41,831 nt of DNA from a virus (IMGVR_UViG_3300029378_000011); one strand, 5' to 3'. Shown: positions 336-23,282, counted from the first letter of the stretch. Program-made: numbers and translations. The notes: generated from the sequence alone by a model not told the origin.

Positions 336-874
336 TGGGCGGTAGAGGCGGAGCAGGCGGCGGGCTTGGCGCTGGTGAAGCTGGGCGCGGGCGCGGAATG
401 AGCCTTGCAAAATTTTTATCTCAGGAGGACATCAACAGAGCAAATGCGGCATCTGTTACAGACATGGGCGACATCATCAGGCGCACATTCGAGCGGAACG
501 CCGCAGAGATCAACGGCTTAGAGCTTTCGGACAGTGAAAAGAAAGACGCTGTCCGCAAGATGGCAGAGTTGGCAACAACTGCCCTAAAAACGGCTGCTGG
601 TGCAGTAAATCCGTATTCAAGCGGACCTGCAAGACTTACCACGGCACAGAAAACCGGCAGCGCAGCGGATAGGGCCGCAAGAGCGCGTGGCGAAATGGAT
701 GGGTATATGCGTAAACTACGCGACCAGTCCAGTGCAAACCGCAAGGCGGCAGAGAAAAAGGCGTTTTCAAATGCTTTTGTATCTGCGGCAAGGTCTGGCG
801 CATTGGAGGTTACGGTAGACGGAAAGAAATATCGTCGCGCAAATAAGCGTAGCAATACGTGGCGGCCTGCATGA
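335..874 (+). CDS. Hypothetical protein with a Gly-rich N-terminus (MGGRGGAGGGLGAGEAGRGRG) and a basic Ala/Lys/Arg-rich body
   Basis: ATG at 335 overlaps the portal stop (ATGA). GGAGG at 324-328. No family recognised. Confidence 0.6.
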   Translation: MGGRGGAGGGLGAGEAGRGRGMSLAKFLSQEDINRANAASVTDMGDIIRRTFERNAAEINGLELSDSEKKDAVRKMAELATTALKTAAGAVNPYSSGPARLTTAQKTGSAADRAARARGEMDGYMRKLRDQSSANRKAAEKKAFSNAFVSAARSGALEVTVDGKKYRRANKRSNTWRPA

Positions 875-1518
875 TTAACTTTGAAAATCTTGACAAGTTC
901 ACATTCCTCGGCGTGGGCAAGTACGATATTCCGCAGATCGAGCCGGTCAAGGCATACCCACAAGGTGAGTTTGTCCCCGTGAATTACCATTACACAGCGA
1001 AAGACACGAAAAGCAAGATTGTGCATTTCTTTGTGGACGATTACCAATTTATTCGATATTGGAACACACCGGACAAGTATATTCCGAAACTGTCGCAGTT
1101 TTCGGCGGTGTGCGCGCCGGACTTCTCCACCTACACGGATATGCCGCTTGCGATGCAGATATACAACCACTATCGCAAGCATTGGTTGGCGGCGTACTGG
1201 CAAATGCACGGCATGACGGTTTATCCCTCTGTATCATGGAGCGATGAACGCAGTTACGATTGGTGCTTTGATGGTGATCCTGTTGGCGGGATAGTTGCGG
1301 TTAGTTCGGTAGGCACACAGCAGAACAAGGAAAGCAAGCGGCTGTTTCTGCGCGGCTACGAGGAAATGATGAAGCGGCTATCGCCGGAATGGGTGATATT
1401 CTATGGCAAAGTGCCGGAGGAATGCGACTGGAATGTGATCCGCGTGAAGCCGCATTACGATGAAATTGTGAAGCGGAGGAAAGCAAATGAAATATCCGTT
1501 TCAGCCGGAAATCCTTGA
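871..1518 (+). CDS. DUF4417-like protein
   Basis: ATG at 871 overlaps the upstream stop (ATGA). Motifs HFFVDDYQF, PDFSTYTDMP, YNHYRKHW and SVSW resemble the DUF4417 family as I remember it. Confidence 0.55.
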   Translation: MINFENLDKFTFLGVGKYDIPQIEPVKAYPQGEFVPVNYHYTAKDTKSKIVHFFVDDYQFIRYWNTPDKYIPKLSQFSAVCAPDFSTYTDMPLAMQIYNHYRKHWLAAYWQMHGMTVYPSVSWSDERSYDWCFDGDPVGGIVAVSSVGTQQNKESKRLFLRGYEEMMKRLSPEWVIFYGKVPEECDWNVIRVKPHYDEIVKRRKANEISVSAGNP

Positions 1519-3712: not shown

Positions 3713-4585
3713 ATGGCTGTTGATCCTAAGCTGATTAAGAAGGAAGATCTTGCCCGTGTTCGCGAGATCGAGTTTACCGAAATGTTCGGCTATTCCATCA
3801 AGAAGTTGATGGAGGCTCTGGGCGTTACCCGCAAGATTGCCAAGCAGGCCGGTACTGTGCTCAAGAGCTACAAGGCTACCGGAACTCTGGAAGACGGCGC
3901 TGTGGCCGAGGGCGAGACCATCCCTCTGAGCAAGTACAAGACCGAGGCTGTGAACTACAAGGAGATCACCTTGAAGAAGTGGCGTAAGGCCACTTCTGCC
4001 GAGGCAATCACTGATCGCGGCTACGATCAGGCCGTCGAAATGACCACCGATGAAATGCTGAAGGATGTGCAAAAAGGTATCCGCAAGGATTTCTTCGGCT
4101 TCCTCGCAACCGGTACTGGCACGGCCAGCGGTGCTACCTTCCAGGCGACCTTGGCTCAGGCATGGGGCCAGCTGCAGGTGCTGTTCGAGGATGACGAGAT
4201 CGGCGCAGTGTATTTCATGAACCCGCTGGATGTTGCGGACTATCTCGCAACTGCCAACATCACCCTGCAGACCGCTTTCGGCATGACCTATGTCGAGAAC
4301 TTTCTCGGTCTGGGCACTGTGATTCTGAACTCCAGCGTCCCCAAGGGCAAGATTTACGCCACCGCCAAGGACAACATCGTCCTGTACTACATCCCTGTGA
4401 ACGGCGCAGATCTGGGCGAGGTGTTCAACTTCACCACCGACGCCACCGGTTATATCGGTATCCATGAGGAACCCGATTACACCAACATGACCGCATCCGA
4501 TACCGTTATCAACGGCATGGTGCTGTTCGCCGAGCGCATTGACGGCGTGGTTGTCGGCTCCATCACTCCGGCAGTGGGGGGCTAA
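3713..4585 (+). CDS. Major capsid protein
   Basis: 290 aa, positioned after the scaffold, with composition typical of siphovirus capsid proteins. It ends in the G-run GTG GGG GGC TAA. Confidence 0.75.
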   Translation: MAVDPKLIKKEDLARVREIEFTEMFGYSIKKLMEALGVTRKIAKQAGTVLKSYKATGTLEDGAVAEGETIPLSKYKTEAVNYKEITLKKWRKATSAEAITDRGYDQAVEMTTDEMLKDVQKGIRKDFFGFLATGTGTASGATFQATLAQAWGQLQVLFEDDEIGAVYFMNPLDVADYLATANITLQTAFGMTYVENFLGLGTVILNSSVPKGKIYATAKDNIVLYYIPVNGADLGEVFNFTTDATGYIGIHEEPDYTNMTASDTVINGMVLFAERIDGVVVGSITPAVGG

Positions 4586-5177: not shown

Positions 5178-5605
5178 CGGTTTACAACGTCGTGCGTGAA
5201 CCGGACCCTGCCACGCTAAAAGATGTCACAAACCTATATGTAACCGTGCTTGATGGCGTGTTCTGCGAGGCGTCAAAGGGAGTTAACGTGCGCAAAAGCG
5301 GGCTTGAAGGCGCCGACGCAGTAAACCTGTATATCCCATTTACGGTAAAAGCTGTGGATGGATTTAGCGGAAAGCCCAAGACATATACAGAGCCGCAAGC
5401 ATTTTTTGCCTCAAGCGACAGGACGGGCCTATGGACGCTATCCACCACCGGCAACGGTGGCGATACATTTTTCGTCAAAGGCGAATTTGTAACGGACAAC
5501 GAGGGCGTGGCATTGGCGCACGATAATTGCTGGAATGTGACTAAGGTTGACGCAAAAGACTTTGGCAGCGCAGATATGCAGCATTGGGAAGTGGGTGGTA
5601 AATAA
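5156..5605 (+). CDS. Head closure / neck protein candidate
   Basis: ATG at 5156 is preceded by GGAGG (5142-5146). 149 aa, in the second neck-gene position. Confidence 0.45.
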   Translation: MYAPHTVTVYNVVREPDPATLKDVTNLYVTVLDGVFCEASKGVNVRKSGLEGADAVNLYIPFTVKAVDGFSGKPKTYTEPQAFFASSDRTGLWTLSTTGNGGDTFFVKGEFVTDNEGVALAHDNCWNVTKVDAKDFGSADMQHWEVGGK

Positions 5606-6025
5606 GTGGCCGTTACCTTTGCGATGCATTTTGGCGGCATGGAGGCCATCAAGGACAAACTGGCTGAGAGCTGCACCCGCGCTGAAAGCATTGTTGGGCA
5701 GCAGGTCATAAAAGACACCGAGCCGTTTGTTCCTGCGCTTACAGGATCATTAACAATACGCACGAGGTTAGACGGCAACAAAATTATTTACCCCGGGCCT
5801 TATGCGCGGTTTTTGTACTACGGCAAAGTCATGGTTGATCCGCAAACCGGTAGCACCTTTGCGCCAAAGGGCGGGACGAAGGTCTTGACAAACCGAGACC
5901 TTGTATTTTCCAAGGCGATGCACCCACAAGCACAGAGCCATTGGTTTGAGGCTTCCAAAGCGCAGAACCTGGATAAATGGATACGCATTGCAGAAAAGGC
6001 GGTGGAAAAATTTGGACAAAGTTAA
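5606..6025 (+). CDS. Neck / tail-completion protein (minor capsid, HK97 gp10-like class)
   Basis: GTG start abutting the upstream stop. The YARFLYYG motif and the third neck-gene position support the call. Confidence 0.45.
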   Translation: MAVTFAMHFGGMEAIKDKLAESCTRAESIVGQQVIKDTEPFVPALTGSLTIRTRLDGNKIIYPGPYARFLYYGKVMVDPQTGSTFAPKGGTKVLTNRDLVFSKAMHPQAQSHWFEASKAQNLDKWIRIAEKAVEKFGQS

Positions 6026-6458
6026 AAAAACCGTATCGGCAGCGGAAGAGGACAAGGTATCTCGCAAGCTGCTGGTTTGGCTGAACACATATCCGGATTT
6101 GCCGGTGGATTTGATTCGATTTGAGTCCCTGCCCGCCGACACCTCTGCAATGGCCATTTCGACCATCCAGGCGTCCTATATCGTTAAACGATATGTTTTA
6201 GGGGGCTACCAAGCGGAATACCAATTCAAAATCATTTACCGGGTTAAGCCGGGCAACAGCATGGACAAACGGCTCAAGGCTGACGAACTGTTAAACGCTA
6301 TCGGAGATTGGGCGACCGGAAAGCGCCCTGACATTGGTACGGGGAAACGCGTTGTAAGCCTGGAGCCTACTACGCGATCTTCTTTGTTCGCTGTGTATGA
6401 AAACGGCGACGAAGATCATCAAATCTTAATGAAAATGAATTACGAGGTGAATACATAA
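6012..6458 (+). CDS. Tail terminator / neck protein candidate
   Basis: There is no in-frame ATG near the upstream stop. TTG at 6012 follows AAGGCGGTGG. This is the fourth neck gene, directly before the major tail gene. Confidence 0.4.
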   Translation: MDKVKKTVSAAEEDKVSRKLLVWLNTYPDLPVDLIRFESLPADTSAMAISTIQASYIVKRYVLGGYQAEYQFKIIYRVKPGNSMDKRLKADELLNAIGDWATGKRPDIGTGKRVVSLEPTTRSSLFAVYENGDEDHQILMKMNYEVNT

Positions 6459-7032: not shown

Positions 7033-7473
7033 ATGAGCGAAAATATTATCAAAATTGATACCGGCGTAGTCACTAAAACTTTTTTGACTACCGACGGGAA
7101 AGAATGCGAATTTGCGTTTAACCCGCTGGATATGGGCCTGTCTCGCCGGCTTTTTTCCGCGTTTGAAAAACTCGACAAAATGAACGAGGGTTATAAGGAC
7201 GAAGTGCAAAAAAACGCCGATAAAAAGGAAATTTTTGACATTGGCCAAAAGATGGACCTGGAAATGCGGGAGATCATCAACGGAGAAGTATTCGGATTTG
7301 ATATCTGCACCCCGCTTTTTGGTGAGCTGAATCTTTACGCGCTGGCCAACGGATTCCCCATTTGGGCAAATTTGCTTTTTGCGCTGGTGGACGAAATGGA
7401 TACTGCGTATGCCCGGGAGCAGAAGCTTACCAACCCGCGCATTAGCAAGTACACCAAGAAGTACCACAAATGA
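7033..7473 (+). CDS. Tail assembly chaperone
   Basis: ATG at 7033 follows ACGGAGGA. 146 aa, acidic, between the major tail gene and the tape measure. Confidence 0.6.
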   Translation: MSENIIKIDTGVVTKTFLTTDGKECEFAFNPLDMGLSRRLFSAFEKLDKMNEGYKDEVQKNADKKEIFDIGQKMDLEMREIINGEVFGFDICTPLFGELNLYALANGFPIWANLLFALVDEMDTAYAREQKLTNPRISKYTKKYHK

Positions 7474-8018
7474 GATACAGCCTGCCAAAATCCGTGGAGC
7501 TGGGCGGGAAGCAATACGCTATTCGGTCTGATTACCGGGACATTTTGGACATTTTGGAAATGCTTTCTGATTCGGAGCTGGACAGCGCCGATAAGGCAGA
7601 GGCAGTGATGGAAATGTTTTACCCGGATTACGAGGATATCCCATACACGGAATACGAGAACGCGGTGCGGCAATGCATATCCTTTATAAATTGCGGCGAG
7701 GAAGAATGCCGGGATGAAAAGCGCCCCAAGCTCATGGATTGGCAGCAGGATTTCCCGATGATTGCAAGCCCCATAAATCGCGTGCTTGGCACGGAAATCC
7801 GCTCCATTGAATATCTGCACTGGTGGACATTTATAGCCGCATACCAAGAAATAGGTGATTGCACCTTTGCCCAAGTGGTAAGCATCCGAAAAAAGAAAAC
7901 CAAAAATCAAAAGCTGGATAAATCCGATCAGGAATTTTACAAGCAGAATAAGCATCTTGTGGATTTCAAGCGCAGATATTCCGAGCAGGACGAAAATATT
8001 ATCAAACAATGGGTATAA
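7470..8018 (+). CDS. Phage Gp15-like tail assembly protein (second chaperone)
   Basis: ATGA overlap with the upstream gene. The YLHWWTF motif and the position before the tape measure support the call. Confidence 0.55.
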   Translation: MRYSLPKSVELGGKQYAIRSDYRDILDILEMLSDSELDSADKAEAVMEMFYPDYEDIPYTEYENAVRQCISFINCGEEECRDEKRPKLMDWQQDFPMIASPINRVLGTEIRSIEYLHWWTFIAAYQEIGDCTFAQVVSIRKKKTKNQKLDKSDQEFYKQNKHLVDFKRRYSEQDENIIKQWV

Positions 8019-8021
8019 AAA

Positions 8022-8043
8022 TCCGCCCTCTTGCGAGGGCGGA
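8022..8043. terminator. Bidirectional rho-independent terminator between convergent genes
   Basis: TCCGCCCTC, loop ttgc, GAGGGCGGA. An A-run lies upstream and a T-rich stretch downstream. Confidence 0.75.
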
Positions 8044-8054
8044 TGGACGCATTT

Positions 8055-8714
8055 TTACTTTTTCAGGTCAGCATCAATGCTGAACATTTTTGCTGTGAAA
8101 CTAATTTTGTACTGACTGCCTTTGGTAACAAGGAATGTGAGTTCATTGCTCCTAACAACTCCTCGCTCAAACCTAACGGTATGTTCTCCTGGCACCAGGT
8201 GGAACTGGACAATATTATCCAAATCAAACGCTTTTCGTTCCCCATCAACAATCAATATTGTTTTTGACTCTCCACACTTCCTCGCACCCATTCGTACCAC
8301 GGTAACATTTTGAGCGAAGCTCGCCTGGTTTTCCGGGTCAGACAGTTTCCTCAAAATCTCAGAACGCTTTTTCTCAAAGACATCATCTGGTAAGGCTCCG
8401 GATTCATGAAGATCGTGGATTTTTTGCAAGGTATCCAGCATCGCGGTATCCGTTTCCGGTGCGGCGGAAGTACTATCCTTGGACTGGTTTGCAATATCCA
8501 TCAGTTTATCGAACAACAACTTCTGTTCGCGTTGTTTTCGCTTACTTTCGCCTGGCGAGATGGGGGCGCACTCAATTACATCGGATGAACCGTCTTCGTA
8601 CTCAACCCAAAAACTGTATAGCGTATAGTTTACTGTAGTAAAAATGAGCGTATCCCGTGCCTCTCGCACTCCAAGTAGCTTTGCGCGTTTTATCAATTTC
8701 TCTTTTTTTGACAA
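8055..8714 (-). CDS. SHOCT-domain protein with a C-terminal beta-rich domain (moron inside the tail module)
   Basis: This is the only minus-strand gene in the structural block. TTG start at 8714 lies 7 nt after GGGAGGGG. LQKIHDLHESGALPDDVFEKKRSEILRKL fits the SHOCT consensus. The gene is visibly AT-richer than its neighbours. Confidence 0.65.
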   Translation of the reverse strand: MSKKEKLIKRAKLLGVREARDTLIFTTVNYTLYSFWVEYEDGSSDVIECAPISPGESKRKQREQKLLFDKLMDIANQSKDSTSAAPETDTAMLDTLQKIHDLHESGALPDDVFEKKRSEILRKLSDPENQASFAQNVTVVRMGARKCGESKTILIVDGERKAFDLDNIVQFHLVPGEHTVRFERGVVRSNELTFLVTKGSQYKISFTAKMFSIDADLKK

Positions 8715-8749
8715 ATGTAATGCCCCTCCCAACAACAAAATTTTAGCGT

Positions 8750-8778
8750 ATTATATCATACGCACAGCACCTTTGCAA
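8750..8778 (-). promoter_or_regulatory. Near-consensus sigma-70-type promoter for the SHOCT gene
   Basis: On the minus strand: TTGCAA (8778-8773), a 17-nt spacer ending in TGA, then TATAAT (8755-8750). Confidence 0.6.
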
Positions 8779-8803
8779 GTAAAAGAAAAATGGTGGTGAT
8801 TTA

Positions 8804-11092
8804 ATGGCAGATGGATCTATTATCATCAATACGGAAATTGATTCCAAGCAGGCGCAAAAAGAGCTCAATACACTTACGAGGAAAATTTCTGCTTTATCTG
8901 AAAAACTAAATGATCTGGAAAGAGAAAAGCTCCCGCTGGTAGAGCAGTCGGCACAGCTCGGCGCAAATCTCGATGCGGCAAAAGCAACTCTTGAACATAT
9001 GAAAAGCGGAGCGGAATTTTTTACATCCGACTCTATTGCAAACCAGCAAGCACAAGTGAACGCCATGCAGAAAGAGTTTGATTCGGCGGCGTTAAAGGTG
9101 GAAACGATCAATGCAAAAATCAACAAAACCGCTGCGTCTCTTGACAATGCAAAGAGAAAGGCGGGAGAACTCAGTGGGCAGCTTGCTGGAGCAAAAAATG
9201 GCACAAGAGAGTTGTCCCCCGCTGCAGAGGAAGCCGGGAAGCGATTCACAAAGCTTGGAAACCGAATCAAGGGGCTTGCAAGGCGCGTGTTTGTTTTTAC
9301 GCTCATTACAGCTGCACTGCGCAAAATCAGGGAGTATATGTGGTCGGCGATCCAGACAAACACCGATGCAATGGCGGCGGTTGCCAAGCTTAAAGGTGCG
9401 CTGCGTACACTGGCCCAGCCGATTGTAAACATCGTTATCCCGGCGTTTACGCTACTCGCAAATGTGCTTACAACGGTGGTAAATACAGCTGCTCGGCTGC
9501 TATCTGCACTGTTTGGAAACACTCTTGCATCTTCTCAGAAAGCGGCTGAAAGCCTTTATGACCAGCAGAAAGCGATTGATGGTGTTGGTTCTGCCGCAAA
9601 GAAAGCCAGTAAATATTTGGCACCTTTCGATGAGCTGAACACAATGAACGGAGATTCCGATAGCTCGGGAGGGGCAAGTGCAAGCGGTGGAATCGCACCG
9701 GATTTCACAAGCACAGTCAGCAGCGGATTGGCTGCCGTTGCAACCTTGTTTACCGGAATTGCCCTTCTTGCATTGGGCGCAGTGTTGACTTTTTCTGGCG
9801 CAAATATACCGATTGGCATTGCTCTGATGGTTGCTGGTGCGTTGGCGGTATATGGTGCCGCCTCCGAAAATTGGGGTCTTATTGCAGAAACTTTGCAAGG
9901 ATCACTTGCGGTTATAGTGACTATTGTAGCCGGAGCTTTGCTTGCTCTTGGCATAATCCTTGTTATGACAAGCGCAAACATCCCGCTTGGAATTGGCATG
10001 ATTATAGCTGGCGCTGCATCTTTGGCCGCCGTTGTTGCCGTCAACTGGGATACCATAACAAGGTTTATAAGTGACAACATAGATGTAATTGCCGGTATTG
10101 TTGGAGCCGCCTTCCTTGTACTTGGCGCCATACTTGCTCTTTCAAGCGCAAATATTCCGCTCGGAGTAGGATTGCTTTTGGTTGGTGCTGCATCTTTGGC
10201 GGCATCTGCAACCATTAATTGGGAAGCAATCCAAAACGCAATGAAAGGGCCTATTGGCGCAGTAACTGCAATTTTGAGCGGCGCGTTGCTTGTGCTTGGC
10301 GGCGCATTGCTGTTTACTTTTGCAAATGTCCCTCTTGGGCTTGGGCTTATGGCTGCTGGAGCGGTTGGGCTTGCGACGGCGATTGTTCCAAATTGGGACA
10401 GTATTACGAAGGCGCTGCAAGGGCCGCTCGGCAAAACTCTTGCTATGATCGGCGGTTTTCTTGTTGTACTCGGGATTATTCTTATTTTTACGGGCGTAGG
10501 AATACCCTTGGGCATCGGGATGTTGCTTGCCGGTGGCGTTAGTTTGGCGGCGGCAATCGCGCCCAATTGGAATTTCATCATAGACAAAATCAAGTACGTT
10601 TGGCAAAAAATCAAAGAATTCTGGAACTCTTATATCGCCCCTGTATTCACTGCGGCCTGGTGGCAGAACCTCGGGAAAAACATCATGAACGGTTTGATCT
10701 CGGGTATTGAACGGGGCATAAACTGGGTGCTGGGCGGCGTAAGCGATATGGTAAATGGCATCACGGGTATCTTGAACAAGATTCCCGGTGTGAACATTGG
10801 ACGGGTTAATTGGGGAAATGTCCACATTCCTCGCCTGGCCCAGGGCGCGGTGATCCCAGCAAACCGGGAATTTTTGGCCGTTTTGGGCGACCAGAAGCGC
10901 GGCACAAACATCGAGGCACCCGCCGATTTGATCCGCCAGATTGTCCGGGAGGAAGTCAAAAACAGCGGCGGCGTAGGAAATCATATCACAATCGTGCTGG
11001 ACAGCGTTAACGGGAAGAAAATATTTGACACTGTTGTGAAGGAAAACAATGCCGTGGTGCGTGCCACCGGCGCAAGCCCGCTGGTGGTGTAA
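8804..11092 (+). CDS. Tail tape measure protein
   Basis: 762 aa with an N-terminal coiled coil, five 58-aa Gly/Ala/Leu-rich hydrophobic repeats and a conserved C-terminal part. It sits after the chaperones. Confidence 0.85.
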   Translation: MADGSIIINTEIDSKQAQKELNTLTRKISALSEKLNDLEREKLPLVEQSAQLGANLDAAKATLEHMKSGAEFFTSDSIANQQAQVNAMQKEFDSAALKVETINAKINKTAASLDNAKRKAGELSGQLAGAKNGTRELSPAAEEAGKRFTKLGNRIKGLARRVFVFTLITAALRKIREYMWSAIQTNTDAMAAVAKLKGALRTLAQPIVNIVIPAFTLLANVLTTVVNTAARLLSALFGNTLASSQKAAESLYDQQKAIDGVGSAAKKASKYLAPFDELNTMNGDSDSSGGASASGGIAPDFTSTVSSGLAAVATLFTGIALLALGAVLTFSGANIPIGIALMVAGALAVYGAASENWGLIAETLQGSLAVIVTIVAGALLALGIILVMTSANIPLGIGMIIAGAASLAAVVAVNWDTITRFISDNIDVIAGIVGAAFLVLGAILALSSANIPLGVGLLLVGAASLAASATINWEAIQNAMKGPIGAVTAILSGALLVLGGALLFTFANVPLGLGLMAAGAVGLATAIVPNWDSITKALQGPLGKTLAMIGGFLVVLGIILIFTGVGIPLGIGMLLAGGVSLAAAIAPNWNFIIDKIKYVWQKIKEFWNSYIAPVFTAAWWQNLGKNIMNGLISGIERGINWVLGGVSDMVNGITGILNKIPGVNIGRVNWGNVHIPRLAQGAVIPANREFLAVLGDQKRGTNIEAPADLIRQIVREEVKNSGGVGNHITIVLDSVNGKKIFDTVVKENNAVVRATGASPLVV
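9797..10590 (+). repeat. Five tandem 174-bp (58-aa) repeats inside the tape measure gene
   Basis: The motif ANIP(L/I)G(I/V)G..AG..LA....NW recurs at about 9801, 9974, 10148, 10322 and 10496. Confidence 0.8.
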
Positions 11093-15126: not shown

Positions 15127-15429
15127 ATGTATCGAGGTACAACGCCCACGCTGACATTCCGCCTGCCCATCGACACGGGGAGCATCACGGTGCTGTCCGT
15201 TGCCGTGGCCCAGGCCGGACAGGTTAAAATCGAAAAAGCATTGTCGGATGTACAGCTGGACGGGAATGTTGTCTCATGCACACTGACGGAGGCCGAGACC
15301 CTGTCGCTTACTGCCGGGAGAGGCATTGACGCAAAGATACAGCTCCGGGTGGGCGTAGGCGGTCAGCGCATGGCATCCCAGGTATTCACGGTGCCGGTGG
15401 AGCGTATCTTGCGGGATGGTGCGCTATGA
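15127..15429 (+). CDS. Hypothetical beta-rich protein (100 aa)
   Basis: GAGGAGGG RBS. MYRGTTPTLTFRLP start. Confidence 0.5.
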   Translation: MYRGTTPTLTFRLPIDTGSITVLSVAVAQAGQVKIEKALSDVQLDGNVVSCTLTEAETLSLTAGRGIDAKIQLRVGVGGQRMASQVFTVPVERILRDGAL

Positions 15430-16574
15430 TCGAGTTTGACGTAACTTTTTCTCCCGGCGCTGACCTGGAGGTCAACATGGGGCAGGTGATGGAGGTGCTT
15501 GCTACCGAGGAGCGGACGGTGGAGCTGTCTATGCCCTCCGGCAATCAGGTCATCCTGCCCACCAGCAGCAAAGGAATGCGTAAGGTGACGATTCAAAAAC
15601 CGGACACTATGCTGCCTGAGAACATCAAGAAGGACGTGGTGATCGGCGGCGTGACCGGTGGCCTTGAGGCACCACCGACAGGCCCTTATATAGCGTATAC
15701 GTCCCTCGACAGTTCTGGTAGAGTGTTTACTGCTAAATTTCGAGGAACCATTGTTCCAGAGTATGCATTCGCTTATTTGGCGGAATTGATATCAGTAGAT
15801 ATGCCAGACAATGTAATTGCAATTGGTGATAATGGTTTTTATCGCTGCCCAAAGCTCCAATTAACAAGTCTCCCACCCGGAATTACCTCACTCGGAGATT
15901 ATGCATTCTCTGATTGTTCAAAGCTAGCGTTAACAAGCCTCCCTTCTGGAATCACCTCAATTGGAGACCAGGCATTTAGGGATTGCTTTAGTCTTGCATT
16001 GACAGGTCTTCCTTCTAGAATTACCTCAATCGGAGATTACACATTTAGGAATTGTTCAAAGATGGCACTAACAAGTCTCCCTTCTGGGATTACATCAATC
16101 GGAGATTTTGCGTTTCTCAATTGTTATCAATTATCATTGACGACCCTGCTTTCTGGAATTACCTCAATCGGACAGTATGCATTCAACAATTGCCCAAGGC
16201 TCGCATTGACGGCCCTACCCTCTGGAATTACCTCATTACCAACAGCCGCATTTCAGTACTGCCCAAAATTAGCATTGACAGCCTTACCCTCTGGACTTAC
16301 CTCAATTGGAGCTTATGCATTTAAGCAGGGTACAGGTCTCGCATCAATAACCCTTCCCCCCGCACTCACTACAATCGGAGATTTTGCGTTTGCCAATTGT
16401 ACTGGATTAGAAACGGTTAGATTTACGAGCACGGTATCCTCAATCCCAAATGGAGTATTTTCCGGGTGCCCAAAACTGTCTACCATTTATGTTCCGTGGT
16501 CGCAGGGGCAAGTAGCAAATGCTCCTTGGGGTGCGAGCAATGCCACCATCATTTACGATTATACTGGGGAGTAA
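15426..16574 (+). CDS. BspA-type leucine-rich-repeat protein
   Basis: About nine 23-aa repeats of the form LTSLPSGITSIGDYAFxxCxxLA. Confidence 0.75.
   Translation: MIEFDVTFSPGADLEVNMGQVMEVLATEERTVELSMPSGNQVILPTSSKGMRKVTIQKPDTMLPENIKKDVVIGGVTGGLEAPPTGPYIAYTSLDSSGRVFTAKFRGTIVPEYAFAYLAELISVDMPDNVIAIGDNGFYRCPKLQLTSLPPGITSLGDYAFSDCSKLALTSLPSGITSIGDQAFRDCFSLALTGLPSRITSIGDYTFRNCSKMALTSLPSGITSIGDFAFLNCYQLSLTTLLSGITSIGQYAFNNCPRLALTALPSGITSLPTAAFQYCPKLALTALPSGLTSIGAYAFKQGTGLASITLPPALTTIGDFAFANCTGLETVRFTSTVSSIPNGVFSGCPKLSTIYVPWSQGQVANAPWGASNATIIYDYTGE
15850..16330 (+). repeat. 69-bp tandem repeats encoding the LRR units
   Basis: attacctca / atcacctca recur with a 69-bp period (for example 15882 and 15951). 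Confidence 0.7.
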
Positions 16575-21657: not shown

Positions 21658-21677
21658 AACTAACAAACTACTAACAA
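21658..21677 (+). repeat. Two more direct ACTAACAA copies (21659, 21670): candidate arm-type sites (right arm)
   Basis: Same orientation and the same 11-bp spacing as the left-arm copies. Confidence 0.4.
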
Positions 21678-22672
21678 ATTTTCGCCTTTTTAACGGCCTG
21701 CACCAATTCCTCCGCTGATGTATGGACGTATATATTTGCGGTAGTGGAGTAGTTGGCGTGGCCGAGGATCCTCTGTAGCGTTTCCGGAGCAATCCCCGCT
21801 TTTCTCGCCCAGCTCGCATAGGTGTGCCGGGTGGAGTGCGGCGTTTTGCGCTGGATTTTTAATTTTTCCAAAAGCGGGTAATAATCCCGGCGGCGGAAGT
21901 TTGCTGGGATTTTTTCCCCAGCATAGCCGGATATGAGCAGTGGGCCAGTAGCCTTATTTGCAAAATAGGCAAAGTATGGGATCCCTTCGGGGCGGATTGG
22001 GATGATCCTGTTTCGCCCAGCCTCCGTCTTTTCACCGCCGACCACATAATCTTTGTGATAATCTTTAGCCGGTAGGGAAAACAATTCCCCTATGCGCATT
22101 CCTGTGTAAATCAGCATGAGGATAATTTTTGCGGTGTCGCTGCCGTCCGCTTCCAGCTTGCTTATTTCAGCATCGGTAAATGTTTCTTTTTCTTTTTTTG
22201 TGTTTTCGGGGAGCTGGACGAATTTTGCAAAATTTGTTGTGATGATCTCCTCGCGCATGGCCCATGTGGACATCTGCGTTATGAGTTGCTTATACTTGGA
22301 CACAGTGCTATGGGATTTATGCATATGGGCATCCAGTACGCCCTGGAAATCCGCCGTTTTTAAGTCCCGGAACTTCCGGTCGTGCAGCGGCGCAAAAATC
22401 TTAAATGCGCCGTCATAGCCTTCTATACCGTTTGGCCCTATTTTTTTGTAATGCTCCTCTTTCCAAGCGTCAAACACCTGGGCAAAGGTCATGTTGTACC
22501 GCTCCGTTAAATCCTTGCCTGCAAGACGTTCCAGCGCCGCTATAGCATCTTTTTTGGTGGGGTAATATCCTATAATGATTTTTTGCTTTGCAGCCACCCA
22601 GGGCCTGCGTCGGCGCCCGGCGAGCTTATACACTGTCCCGGTTCCGTTGGCCCTCCTCATTGCTTTTCCCAT
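21671..22672 (-). CDS. int: Tyrosine integrase (phage integrase family)
   Basis: ATG at 22672 follows TAGGAGGATAAAA. C-terminal HSTRHTYASWARKAGI...LGHANYSTTANIYVH (R-H-R-Y catalytic pattern). Confidence 0.9.
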   Translation of the reverse strand: MGKAMRRANGTGTVYKLAGRRRRPWVAAKQKIIIGYYPTKKDAIAALERLAGKDLTERYNMTFAQVFDAWKEEHYKKIGPNGIEGYDGAFKIFAPLHDRKFRDLKTADFQGVLDAHMHKSHSTVSKYKQLITQMSTWAMREEIITTNFAKFVQLPENTKKEKETFTDAEISKLEADGSDTAKIILMLIYTGMRIGELFSLPAKDYHKDYVVGGEKTEAGRNRIIPIRPEGIPYFAYFANKATGPLLISGYAGEKIPANFRRRDYYPLLEKLKIQRKTPHSTRHTYASWARKAGIAPETLQRILGHANYSTTANIYVHTSAEELVQAVKKAKIC

Positions 22673-22682
22673 TTTTATCCTC

Positions 22683-23282
22683 CTACCCTGTATTTTTATC
22701 AGTTTGATGGTGCCTGTAATATCGCAGCGCATTAATCAGCGAAGCAATGATTACACCGACGCCCACCGCAAGCAGAGCAAATAGCATCCAGCCGAGTGAT
22801 GTAATCTTCCCGTTGCGGATAAGCCCTGTTTGCGGGACGCTTGAGTCAAACGCCAAATATCCAAATATTATGGATACGGAAATCGACAGCGAAAGTGCCA
22901 GGATATACACCCAAATTTGCAATACTCGCTCCTTTTTTTCATGCTTTGCCACTGATCCGGTCAGTTGCTCCATGCCGCCCTCTAAGTGCGCAATGCGTAG
23001 GGCTGCGCTATGCTTTGCATCTGCATCGGCCATTGCTCTGTGTGCCTCTGCCAGCTGCTCCTCCGTGGTTGGTCTCTTTACGATACCAAAATACTCATCT
23101 ATAGACACACCGAGGGCGGCGCATATAATCCCCATTTTGTATAGGCTTGGATCCTTTGACGACGCAGAAAAGTAATTGCTGATCGTGGACGATGACAGAT
23201 CTGTTAAATCGGCTAAGTCTTGCGTGGTAAGATGCTGGTACTCCTTTGCCTCTCTGCAAATATCCTGCAAAGTTTTTTCCAT
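22683..23282 (-). CDS. Membrane-anchored XRE-family HTH protein
   Basis: N-terminal HTH (LTTQDLADLTDLSSSTISNYFS), a central helical linker and two C-terminal TM helices (IWVYILALSLSISVSIIFGYLAF; WMLFALLAVGVGVIIASLINAL). Confidence 0.7.
   Translation of the reverse strand: MEKTLQDICREAKEYQHLTTQDLADLTDLSSSTISNYFSASSKDPSLYKMGIICAALGVSIDEYFGIVKRPTTEEQLAEAHRAMADADAKHSAALRIAHLEGGMEQLTGSVAKHEKKERVLQIWVYILALSLSISVSIIFGYLAFDSSVPQTGLIRNGKITSLGWMLFALLAVGVGVIIASLINALRYYRHHQTDKNTG

What the first reader, a model, noticed from the sequence alone, without database searches (positions are those of the whole stretch)
8022..8778. Autonomous reverse-strand SHOCT-domain gene inserted between the tail chaperones and the tape measure
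This is the only minus-strand gene in the ~17-kb structural block. It is visibly AT-richer than its neighbours. It has its own near-consensus promoter (TTGCAA, 17 nt, TGA-TATAAT, at 8778-8750) and a bidirectional terminator (8022-8043). This is the classic moron layout, which allows expression from the prophage. The 219-aa product has no signal peptide or TM helix. It consists of a small N-terminal beta domain, a Ser/Thr/Asp-rich linker, a SHOCT motif (LQKIHDLHESGALPDDVFEKKRSEILRKL) and a C-terminal beta-sandwich-like domain (ILIVDGERKAFDLDNIVQFHLVPGEHTVRF). I know of no assigned function for this architecture. Superinfection exclusion, abortive infection or another lysogen-benefit role is plausible but is pure inference.
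Basis: partly seen in the sequence, partly recalled or inferred. Interest (0 to 1): 0.65.

Follow-up and report, generated by a model that had tools for sequence, protein, structure and literature searches.

The report
Reverse-strand accessory gene in phage tail operon
A gut-bacterium virus carries a self-contained extra gene, pointing backwards between two tail genes at the spot where the first "moron" gene was described, and it encodes an uncharacterised soluble protein that probably benefits the infected bacterium, most likely by fending off other viruses.

Summary
Bases 8055-8714 (-) encode a real 219-aa protein under purifying selection (dN/dS 0.09-0.28). It has a near-consensus extended -10 promoter (8778-8750), a ribosome-binding site and a 10-bp GC-rich terminator hairpin (8044-8021). 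It is the only reverse gene in the structural block of a temperate siphovirus that binning assigns to gut Oscillospiraceae.

Comparison with related phages makes the moron reading strong. The flanking genes, Gp15 and the tape measure protein (TMP), are 12-55 nt apart in many relatives. In others the same slot holds at least six unrelated reverse-strand cassettes, mostly membrane proteins, between near-identical flanks. HK97 gp15, the original moron, occupies the same position.

Three corrections. The gene is not a recent insertion: 44-47 % identical homologues sit in the same slot in phages whose Gp15 and TMP have diverged about as far. The terminator has a U-tract on the cassette strand only. 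The AT-richness is modest.

The protein belongs to an unnamed family: a small N-terminal β module, a SHOCT hairpin (profile-level match only) and a DUF2846/transthyretin-like β-sandwich. Relatives include fusions to an Mrr nuclease and a TIR domain, and one sits inside a type III restriction-modification (R-M) operon. Function is untested; an anti-phage role is the best guess.

The parts
8019..8803 (-). Whole accessory cassette, filling the space between the Gp15 stop codon and the TMP start codon
   Evidence: The alignment of filled and empty sites shows homology breaking right after the Gp15 stop and resuming at the TMP ribosome-binding site GGTGATTTAATG. Empty sites have 23-55 nt here.
8750..8778 (-). 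Sigma-70/sigma-A-type promoter: TTGCAA, 17 nt, TG-n-TATAAT (extended -10)
   Evidence: 10/12 matches, TG present. About 0.015 such sites are expected per 90 nt. A 10/12 promoter sits at the equivalent position in the diverged clades L101 and L106.
8723..8730 (-). Ribosome-binding site GGGAGGGG, 8 nt before the TTG start
   Evidence: Read directly from the sequence. Relatives have AAGGAGG or AAGGAG at the same place.
8055..8714 (-). Coding sequence of the 219-aa cytoplasmic protein (unnamed family)
   Evidence: dN/dS 0.09-0.28. 44 relatives at E <= 1e-3 in an exhaustive HMMER search, about 20 of them full length.
8550..8714 (-). N-terminal beta module (residues 1-55; motif KLLGVR...NY.LYSFWVEY.DGS)
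   Evidence: Model strands at 8-22, 27-39 and 44-49, pLDDT 84-93. Invariant G15, N29, Y33, Y39. The module also occurs alone or behind transmembrane anchors in other proteins.
8349..8435 (-). SHOCT-like helical hairpin (residues 94-122)
   Evidence: hhalign of the family profile against bona fide SHOCT repeats: probability 94.7 %, E 5.9e-8. 10 of 18 family members hit PF09851 at E <= 1, best 4.6e-4. The window protein gives no Pfam hit.
8058..8321 (-). C-terminal beta-sandwich (residues 132-219), DUF2846/transthyretin-like
   Evidence: Model strands at 137-218, pLDDT 91-95. 4 of 18 members hit PF11008 at E <= 1, best 1.1e-4. The best PDB fold matches are transthyretin and carboxypeptidase regulatory domains, E 0.015-0.1. 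The domain is fused to Mrr_cat or TIR_2 in other proteins.
8016..8044 (-). Intrinsic terminator: 10-bp stem, GCAA loop, then UUUUUAU whose template overlaps the Gp15 stop codon
   Evidence: The same hairpin ends cassettes A, B and C and the diverged A-type cassettes, and is absent from empty sites.
7470..8018 (+). Left flank: Phage_Gp15 protein (second gene of the tail-chaperone pair)
   Evidence: PF06854 E 5.6e-27; phrog_706.
8804..11092 (+). Right flank: tail length tape measure protein
   Evidence: phrog_1535 E 5e-43.

Best explanation
This is a moron: a self-contained accessory transcription unit in a recombination hot spot between the tail-chaperone gene Gp15 and the tape-measure gene of a temperate siphovirus. 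Binning assigns the phage to gut Oscillospiraceae. A housekeeping-type promoter with an extended -10 box drives the gene against the direction of the late operon. A hairpin terminator with a U-tract on the cassette strand only stops this transcript at the Gp15 stop codon, and probably lets late transcription read through to the tape-measure gene.

The product is a soluble cytoplasmic protein with no recognisable enzyme domain. It has a small N-terminal beta module, a SHOCT helical hairpin and a transthyretin/DUF2846-like beta-sandwich.

My inference is that it is made in the lysogen and protects it from other phages from inside the cell. It would act as a binding protein, with the C-terminal sandwich as the recognition module. 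It would work after DNA entry, for example by blocking tail assembly or another late step (as Tab and Tai do), or by triggering abortive infection. It would not block entry at the envelope.

Shown: the gene is real, its signals are conserved, it is dispensable and swappable, and the family exists outside phages. Inferred: expression in lysogeny, the anti-phage role and the binding mechanism.
For: Real gene:
- An independent gene caller gives the same product on 23 contigs.
- dN/dS is 0.09-0.28 within three clades.

Autonomous unit:
- The promoter is rare by chance.
- Promoter and terminator are kept at the same positions in clades that are only 44-47 % identical in protein, and the promoter sequences themselves differ.

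Moron test:
- Gp15 and TMP are 12-55 nt apart in many relatives.
- L029 (this gene) and L034 (a different cassette) are 96.2 % and 94.5 % identical in their flanks but unrelated in between.
- L014 (filled) and L039 (empty) are 91.3 % and 92.8 % identical in their flanks.
- At least six other reverse-strand cassettes use the slot.

Temperate phage: integrase plus HTH repressor-type genes.

Not a virion part:
- It is absent from close relatives.
- Homologues lie in bacterial chromosome contexts.

Defence-leaning associations:
- Family member P0017 lies 13 nt after a DNA methylase gene and before a ResIII gene, on the same strand.
- The C-terminal domain is fused to FtsK_gamma + Mrr_cat in P0026 and to TIR_2 + SHOCT in P0038. 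Those effector parts match PADLOC defence models.
- P0012 lies beside a CoiA-like nuclease and an integrase.

Precedents from the literature:
- HK97 gp15 sits in the same slot and excludes superinfecting phages (PMC3594210; annotation).
- Tab is a small moron product with no similarity to known proteins, constitutively expressed from the prophage, whose activity is linked to the invader's TMP (PMC10884400).
Against: - There are no expression data and no phenotype.
- Neither the protein nor its full-length relatives match any PADLOC, Pfam, PHROG or NCBIfam family of known function.
- No catalytic motif is visible and fold searches give only generic beta-sandwiches.
- The defence associations are few: one R-M operon and two fusion proteins.
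- Two chromosomal homologues sit among housekeeping-type genes.
- The other cassettes in the slot are envelope proteins, so this soluble one may do something different from them.
- The role of SHOCT itself is unknown. The one oligomerisation test in the founding paper was negative (PMC3581485).
Confidence: 0.45

Rival explanations
1. Lysogenic-conversion gene unrelated to phage defence. The protein changes host physiology (stress tolerance, regulation, nucleic-acid or small-molecule binding) and is carried because it helps the lysogen in the gut.
For: It has the same moron anatomy. Homologues stand alone in bacterial chromosomes among metabolic genes (GlgB, a cytidylate-kinase-like gene, LysR, an amino-acid symporter), which suits a general cellular role. 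There is no match to known defence families.
Against: The C-terminal domain is fused to a nuclease and to a TIR effector, and one member is embedded in an R-M operon. Per the moron literature read here, many characterised morons confer phage resistance (PMC10884400).
Confidence: 0.25
2. The gene serves the phage's own cycle: for example a regulator, an anti-defence protein, or a factor that modulates tail or TMP assembly. It may also dampen read-through into the tail genes during lysogeny by convergent transcription.
For: It sits beside the TMP and chaperone genes. It has diverged about as far as they have (45-50 % for this protein, 46-48 % for TMP, 54-65 % for Gp15), while the capsid protein stays 98-99 % identical. 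This suggests long linkage with the tail module.
Against: It is dispensable and replaceable. Phages with 91-96 % identical Gp15 genes, some also with 93-95 % identical TMP starts, lack it or carry unrelated cassettes. It is transcribed against the late operon from a housekeeping-type promoter. Homologues occur in non-phage contexts.
Confidence: 0.12
3. Envelope-level superinfection exclusion of the HK97 gp15, Sie2009 or Ltp type, blocking DNA injection at the membrane.
For: It occupies the same slot as HK97 gp15. The alternative cassettes in the slot are membrane proteins or a lipoprotein. The N-terminal module is joined to transmembrane anchors in other proteins.
Against: This protein has no transmembrane helix or signal peptide and no similarity to gp15. 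It could reach the injection machinery only from the cytoplasmic face.
Confidence: 0.08
4. A non-functional or decaying open reading frame carried passively in a variable intergenic region.
For: There is no annotation anywhere. One alternative cassette (B) is visibly disrupted in L025 and L028.
Against: Purifying selection, dN/dS 0.09-0.28. Full-length conservation down to 27 % identity across about 20 clusters. A confident fold, pLDDT 85.9. Conserved expression signals.
Confidence: 0.02

Closest known systems
HK97 gp15 moron (superinfection exclusion protein)
   Same: [quoted passage not shown] It has its own terminator, and the moron literature describes such elements as carrying their own promoter too. 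It is an extra gene absent from related phages and is carried by a temperate siphovirus.
   Different: HK97 gp15 is a 62-aa inner-membrane protein transcribed in the same direction as the tail genes. The gene here is 219 aa, soluble, has three modules and points the other way. There is no sequence similarity. The gp15 mechanism (membrane insertion blocking TMP-dependent DNA entry) is unlikely for a protein with no membrane segment.
Tab (Pseudomonas phage JBD26) and Tai systems: moron-encoded blockers of tail assembly
   Same: They are prophage moron products inside or next to the late genes and act from the cytoplasm. Tab resembles no known protein and its activity is linked to the invader's TMP (PMC10884400; PMC11364771). 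A soluble non-enzymatic binder beside the TMP gene fits this way of working.
   Different: Tab is 83 aa and lies between the terminase genes. Tai genes lie mostly upstream of the packaging module. I did not test sequence similarity because I held no Tab or Tai sequences. No counter-defence partner is evident here, and no target has been identified.
SHOCT-domain proteins (Pfam PF09851)
   Same: The central helical hairpin matches bona fide SHOCT repeats at profile level. Like many SHOCT proteins, it combines SHOCT with unrelated globular modules (PMC3581485).
   Different: The window protein is below Pfam's threshold. SHOCT is internal here, not C-terminal. The SHOCT domain has no established function.
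Accessory-gene and defence hot spots of prophages and satellites
   Same: A fixed position between conserved genes where unrelated cassettes replace each other. A conserved boundary element, the shared terminator hairpin, could guide exchange.
   Different: None of the cassettes found here matches a known defence system. Each cassette is a single gene, and the hot spot lies inside the tail operon.

Membership tests
Phage moron (definition as summarised in PMC3594210) | Extra DNA between two genes that are adjacent in related phages | tested here: met
   Gp15 and TMP are 12-55 nt apart in L039, L040, L045 and most distant relatives. The cassette is 785 nt here.
Phage moron (definition as summarised in PMC3594210) | Own promoter | tested here: met
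   Sequence-level only. A 10/12 match plus TG at 8778-8750, rare by chance, and conserved in position in clades L101 and L106. Transcription was not measured.
Phage moron (definition as summarised in PMC3594210) | Own terminator | tested here: met
   A 10-bp hairpin plus U-tract on the cassette strand, conserved in all A-type clades and in cassette C.
Phage moron (definition as summarised in PMC3594210) | Base composition differs from surrounding genes | tested here: inconclusive
   GC is 44.1 %, against 45-46 % for the left neighbours, 49.8 % for TMP and 52 % for the window. This is the 5.8th percentile of 660-nt windows. GC3 is 45.9 % against 49-73 %.
Phage moron (definition as summarised in PMC3594210) | Expressed from the repressed prophage | not testable with these tools
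   This needs RNA-seq of a lysogen. Only the promoter type and the orientation speak for it.
SHOCT domain (PF09851) | Score above Pfam's gathering threshold | tested here: not met
   No hit for the whole protein or for the excised 42-aa segment, even at E = 10. Relatives reach at best 4.6e-4.
SHOCT domain (PF09851) | Profile-level homology to bona fide SHOCT repeats, and a two-helix hairpin | tested here: met
   hhalign probability 94.7 %, E 5.9e-8, over residues 94-122. The reference repeats come from P0044 and P0045, which score 1e-21 and 1e-23 on PF09851. phmmer links residues 79-123 to them at E about 5e-4. The model has helices at 89-104 and 110-125.
DUF2846 (PF11008) / transthyretin-like beta-sandwich | Sequence or fold match to the family | tested here: inconclusive
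   4 of 18 relatives hit at E <= 1, best 1.1e-4, and the window protein does not hit. Foldseek against the PDB gives nothing at E <= 1e-3; the best matches are carboxypeptidase regulatory domains and transthyretin at E 0.015-0.1. Against BFVD, DUF4352 scores 5e-4.
HK97 gp15 superinfection-exclusion family | Sequence similarity and a membrane-spanning helix | tested here: not met
   BLASTP E 3.6. Maximum hydropathy 0.49, so no transmembrane helix. Only the genomic position is shared.
Known anti-phage defence systems (PADLOC-DB 2.0) | Match to any component model | tested here: not met
   No hit for the window protein at E = 10, nor for P0005, P0006, P0008 or cassettes B and C at E = 0.01.
Tab / Tai tail-assembly blockers | Sequence similarity; blocks tail assembly of invading phages through TMP or a tail-tip protein | not tested
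The functional feature needs an experiment.

The most novel reading that the evidence does not exclude
The family is a new single-protein anti-phage system of gut Clostridia. The DUF2846-like sandwich would be a phage-sensing module, the same one that is wired to Mrr nuclease or TIR effectors in other proteins. The 55-residue N-terminal beta module would be a new small effector or assembly-blocking module, and it also exists alone and on membrane anchors. Tight linkage to the TMP gene would then keep each defence allele together with a TMP allele it does not attack, giving built-in self-immunity.
Probability: 0.2. Interest if true: 0.7.

Novelty: new member of a known kind. Interest (0 to 1): 0.42.

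Why it matters
Temperate phages of Oscillospiraceae are abundant in the human gut, and their accessory genes are almost entirely uncharacterised. This locus gives a cleanly bounded hot spot inside the tail operon, at the same position as the archetypal HK97 moron. At least seven unrelated single-gene cassettes and empty sites are available there for comparison.

It also yields an unnamed three-module protein family with circumstantial links to defence. If the anti-phage role holds, it adds a new recognition domain and possibly a new small effector to the defence repertoire. It would also show that the chaperone/TMP junction is a general landing pad for exclusion genes across very distant phage groups. 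If it does not hold, this remains a well-documented but ordinary moron of unknown function.

Tried and rejected
- The single-sequence AlphaFold2 model was useless (pLDDT 38). It was replaced by the model built from an alignment.
- Pfam, PHROGs, PADLOC and NCBIfam gave nothing for the window protein.
- PDB sequence searches with the protein and with the family profile gave only chance-level hits.
- Foldseek gave generic sandwiches only.
- The word-indexed homologue search found only relatives at 86 % identity or more. Run again with the family profile it returned 10 proteins. With the C-terminal-domain profile it returned one short protein. The exhaustive HMMER search was what revealed the family.
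- The one metagenome scan returned five mostly short loci.
- P0026 has no relative in the viral contigs.
- The family is absent from the plasmid collection. Among deposited phage records it occurs only in one unannotated human-faecal contig, MT837048.
- Rfam finds no known RNA in 7800-9000.
- I considered a structural or assembly role and rejected it, because the gene is dispensable in close relatives and occurs outside phages.
- I considered the 227-aa reading and rejected it, because its start would lie at or before the predicted transcription start.
- I considered a bidirectional terminator and rejected it, because the plus strand lacks a U-tract directly after the stem.

Full report
**1. 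What is in the sequence**

The window is a temperate siphovirus genome or prophage.
- Head, tail and lysis genes run on the plus strand from about 200 to 17 700.
- They are followed by a tyrosine integrase (21671-22732, minus strand) and two HTH repressor-type genes.
- Within the tail genes, 7470-8018 encodes a Phage_Gp15 protein (PF06854, E 5.6e-27), the second gene of the chaperone pair.
- 8804-11092 encodes the tape measure protein, TMP (phrog_1535, E 5e-43).

Between these two genes lies an open reading frame on the minus strand, 8055-8714.
- It starts with TTG, and GGGAGGGG lies 8 nt upstream.
- An independent gene caller predicted exactly this 219-aa product on 23 metagenomic contigs. 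On those contigs every other gene from terminase to lysin is on the opposite strand.
- GC skew and AT skew change sign over 8000-8800, as expected for a gene on the other strand.

**2. Expression signals**

The promoter scan finds TTGCAA-17-TATAAT with a TG extension at 8778-8750. This is the best hit in the region. Over both strands of the whole 41.8-kb window only 14 sites score 10 of 12 or better, which gives an expectation of about 0.015 for one 90-nt upstream stretch. Several of the others cluster at the integrase/repressor switch, so this promoter type is evidently in use in this phage.

A 10-bp stem with 7 GC pairs lies at 8044-8021 (-20.5 kcal/mol, z = -4.8) and is followed at once by UUUUUAU on the minus strand. 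On the plus strand the same stem forms, but the T-run starts 7-8 nt later, and the scan does not report it as a terminator there. I therefore read it as a terminator for the cassette that late transcription can probably pass, not as a bidirectional terminator. No Rfam family matches the region.

**3. The gene is real**

Within each of three clades of the family, dN/dS is 0.09-0.28. The exhaustive HMMER search finds 44 proteins at E <= 1e-3, about 20 of them full length (213-248 aa, 27-47 % identity). They align end to end with invariant residues in all three modules.

**4. The moron test**

I fetched 78 viral loci encoding a Gp15 relative and looked at what follows Gp15.
- In most distant relatives (about 40 % identical Gp15) TMP starts 12-18 nt after Gp15.
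- Among close relatives (77-91 % identical Gp15) L039, L040 and L045 are also empty, with 23-55 nt in the gap.
- In other close relatives the slot is filled, always by one minus-strand gene.

The cassettes found in the slot are:

| Cassette | Product | Example loci |
|---|---|---|
| A | this 219-aa protein | L012, L029, L086 |
| B | about 180-aa membrane protein with a glycine-zipper segment | L014 and about 18 others |
| C | about 236-aa membrane-anchored tRNA_anti-like OB-fold protein (PF12869, 2e-15) | L030, L034 and about 8 others |
| E | 57-aa zinc-ribbon plus transmembrane protein | L048 |
| F | 131-aa zinc-ribbon plus TM2-domain protein | L072, L073 |
| G | 174-aa predicted lipoprotein | L085 |

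The flanks prove exchange. L029 (A) and L034 (C) are 96.2 % identical in Gp15 DNA and 94.5 % in the first 600 nt of TMP, but unrelated in between. L014 (B) and L039 (empty) are 91.3 % and 92.8 % identical in their flanks.

The alignment places the left boundary directly after the Gp15 stop codon and the right boundary at the TMP ribosome-binding site. Cassettes A, B and C all end with a version of the same terminator hairpin, with a stem change in C that keeps the pairing. Empty sites lack it. This shared end may be where recombination swaps cassettes. That is my inference.

**5. Not a recent insertion**

A second scan with the protein family found 27 viral contigs with 44-47 % identical homologues. 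All sit in the same slot and in the same reverse orientation.

Between the three clades:
- this protein is 45-50 % identical;
- TMP is 46-48 % identical;
- Gp15 is 54-65 % identical;
- the major capsid protein is 98-99 % identical.

So the gene has travelled with the chaperone/TMP block for a long time, while head modules were exchanged recently. Both diverged clades keep a 10/12 promoter at the same distance from the start (TTGACA-17-TATCTT, and TTGAAA-17-TATATT with TG). Both also keep the 10-bp hairpin right after the stop. That conservation is the strongest sequence-level evidence that the unit is transcribed on its own.

**6. The protein**

There is no transmembrane helix or signal peptide: the maximum hydropathy is 0.49. 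The window protein matches nothing in Pfam, PHROGs, PADLOC or NCBIfam.

With the 18-sequence alignment, AlphaFold2 gives mean pLDDT 85.9:
- three long beta strands (8-49);
- a helix (58-80);
- a disordered Ser/Thr/Asp-rich linker (81-86);
- a helical hairpin (89-104 and 110-125), followed by a short helix at 127-133;
- a beta-sandwich (137-218).

*SHOCT.* The hairpin is SHOCT-like.
- 10 of 18 relatives hit PF09851 at E <= 1, best 4.6e-4.
- phmmer links residues 79-123 to the multi-SHOCT proteins P0044 and P0045, which are bona fide SHOCT proteins (E 1e-21 and 1e-23).
- The family profile aligns to their repeats with 94.7 % probability, E 5.9e-8.

*Beta-sandwich.*
- It gives sub-threshold DUF2846 hits in 4 of 18 relatives.
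- Fold matches are weak, to transthyretin and carboxypeptidase regulatory domains.
- In BFVD the only strong match is an uncharacterised family member, A0A8S5VFH3, E 7.7e-26.
- No solved structure is related by sequence.

**7. Clues to function**

*Domain shuffling*:
- The C-terminal sandwich is fused to FtsK_gamma + Mrr_cat (P0026), to zinc-ribbon/TPR + TIR_2 + SHOCT (P0038), and to zinc-ribbon + TPR (P0029, P0031, P0043).
- The nuclease and TIR parts match PADLOC defence models (ZorD, LmuA, PDC-S02; PDC-S66).
- The N-terminal module occurs alone (about 70 aa) or behind transmembrane anchors (P0035, P0036, P0040).
- In P0042 it follows a sandwich-like domain in swapped order.
- One stand-alone copy lies next to a terminase in a viral contig.

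*Genomic contexts of full-length relatives:*
- P0017 lies 13 nt after a DNA methylase gene and 71 nt before a ResIII gene, on the same strand.
- P0012 lies beside a CoiA-like nuclease and an integrase.
- P0008 lies in a chromosome at the point where at least three different serine-recombinase elements have integrated.
- A P0006-like copy lies among housekeeping genes in an Oscillospiraceae MAG.

Together these make a virion role very unlikely and lean towards conflict systems. The sample is small, however.

**8. How it most likely works**

Shown: an autonomous, dispensable, swappable and selected gene in a temperate phage, encoding a soluble protein with no recognisable enzyme domain.

Inferred: it is expressed in the lysogen and acts as a binding protein from inside the cell.

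Two precedents guide the guess:
- HK97 gp15, the first element ever called a moron, lies in the same position and excludes superinfecting phages (PMC3594210). However, it is a 62-aa membrane protein with no similarity to this one.
- Tab of phage JBD26 is a small moron product, resembling no known protein, whose activity is linked to the invader's TMP and which blocks tail assembly (PMC10884400). Tai systems work similarly (PMC11364771).

A Tab-like or abortive mechanism suits a cytoplasmic protein better than envelope-level exclusion does.

My probabilities: moron status about 0.9; an anti-phage role of any kind about 0.5; a specific TMP or tail target about 0.2.

**9. Novelty and verdict**

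As a kind of element this is known: a moron, at the archetypal position. The new points are:
- the reverse orientation;
- the unnamed three-module family;
- the richness of the hot spot (at least seven cassette types plus empty sites);
- the shared terminator boundary.

The family is absent from plasmids and from deposited phage genomes, apart from one unannotated faecal contig. I found no functional study of SHOCT proteins in prophages.

The host assignment to Oscillospiraceae rests on MAG binning. L095 is a 4.7-kb contig. L096 is an 82-kb contig carrying a 40 % identical homologue.

Interest is moderate: a well-supported, testable but still functionally open accessory gene.

Noticed in passing
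window 15426-16574 (+): A 382-aa BspA-type leucine-rich-repeat protein (LRR_5, E 1e-98) lies between the tail genes and the holin. It has low GC (0.42-0.46) and reversed GC skew. Its length varies, or it is truncated, among otherwise near-identical copies of the phage (382, 365 or a 99-aa remnant). This may be a second accessory or host-interaction spot.
   Followed up: partly
L014, L034, L048, L072, L085 (the slot after Gp15, about 5550-6370 in the locus coordinates of L014 and L034): At least five other unrelated reverse-strand cassettes occupy the same Gp15/TMP slot. They are a membrane protein with a glycine zipper, a membrane-anchored tRNA_anti-like OB-fold protein, a 57-aa zinc-ribbon plus transmembrane protein, a zinc-ribbon plus TM2-domain protein, and a lipoprotein. 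None matches a known defence model.
   Followed up: partly
L131 1677-2348: Family member P0017 (30 % identical) lies between a DNA methylase (N6_N4_Mtase) gene and a ResIII gene. It starts 13 nt after the methylase stop, on the same strand, as if it were a third gene of a type III restriction-modification operon.
   Followed up: partly
L089-L093 (P0008 at about 8001-8684 in L089): A 40 % identical chromosomal homologue sits at the junction where at least three different serine-recombinase elements (a conjugative element, a prophage and another element) have integrated, next to a conserved LysR gene. In L092 the incoming element also carries a separate 153-aa SHOCT protein beside its recombinase.
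   Followed up: no
L025 and L028 (5550-6197); L045 (5550-5604): Cassette B is disrupted in L025 and L028. The 'empty' site of L045 keeps a CTCCCTCC motif like the reverse-strand ribosome-binding sites of the cassettes, which may be a deletion scar.
   Followed up: no
P0042 (165 aa); L130 4926-5177: The N-terminal and C-terminal modules also occur in swapped order without SHOCT (P0042). The N-terminal module also exists as a stand-alone protein of about 72-83 aa, next to a small serine recombinase and the large terminase in a 67-kb viral contig.
   Followed up: partly
window 3713-4585 versus 7470-11092, compared with L101-L127: The mosaicism is sharp. The major capsid protein is 98-99 % identical between phage clades whose chaperone, moron and TMP genes are only 45-65 % identical. 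So the head and tail modules have very different histories.
   Followed up: partly
window 859-1518 (+): A DUF4417 protein (215 aa in the gene calls for other copies of this phage) sits inside the head-morphogenesis block, just before the Phage_min_cap2 gene (the portal gene lies further upstream). Its role is unknown.
   Followed up: no
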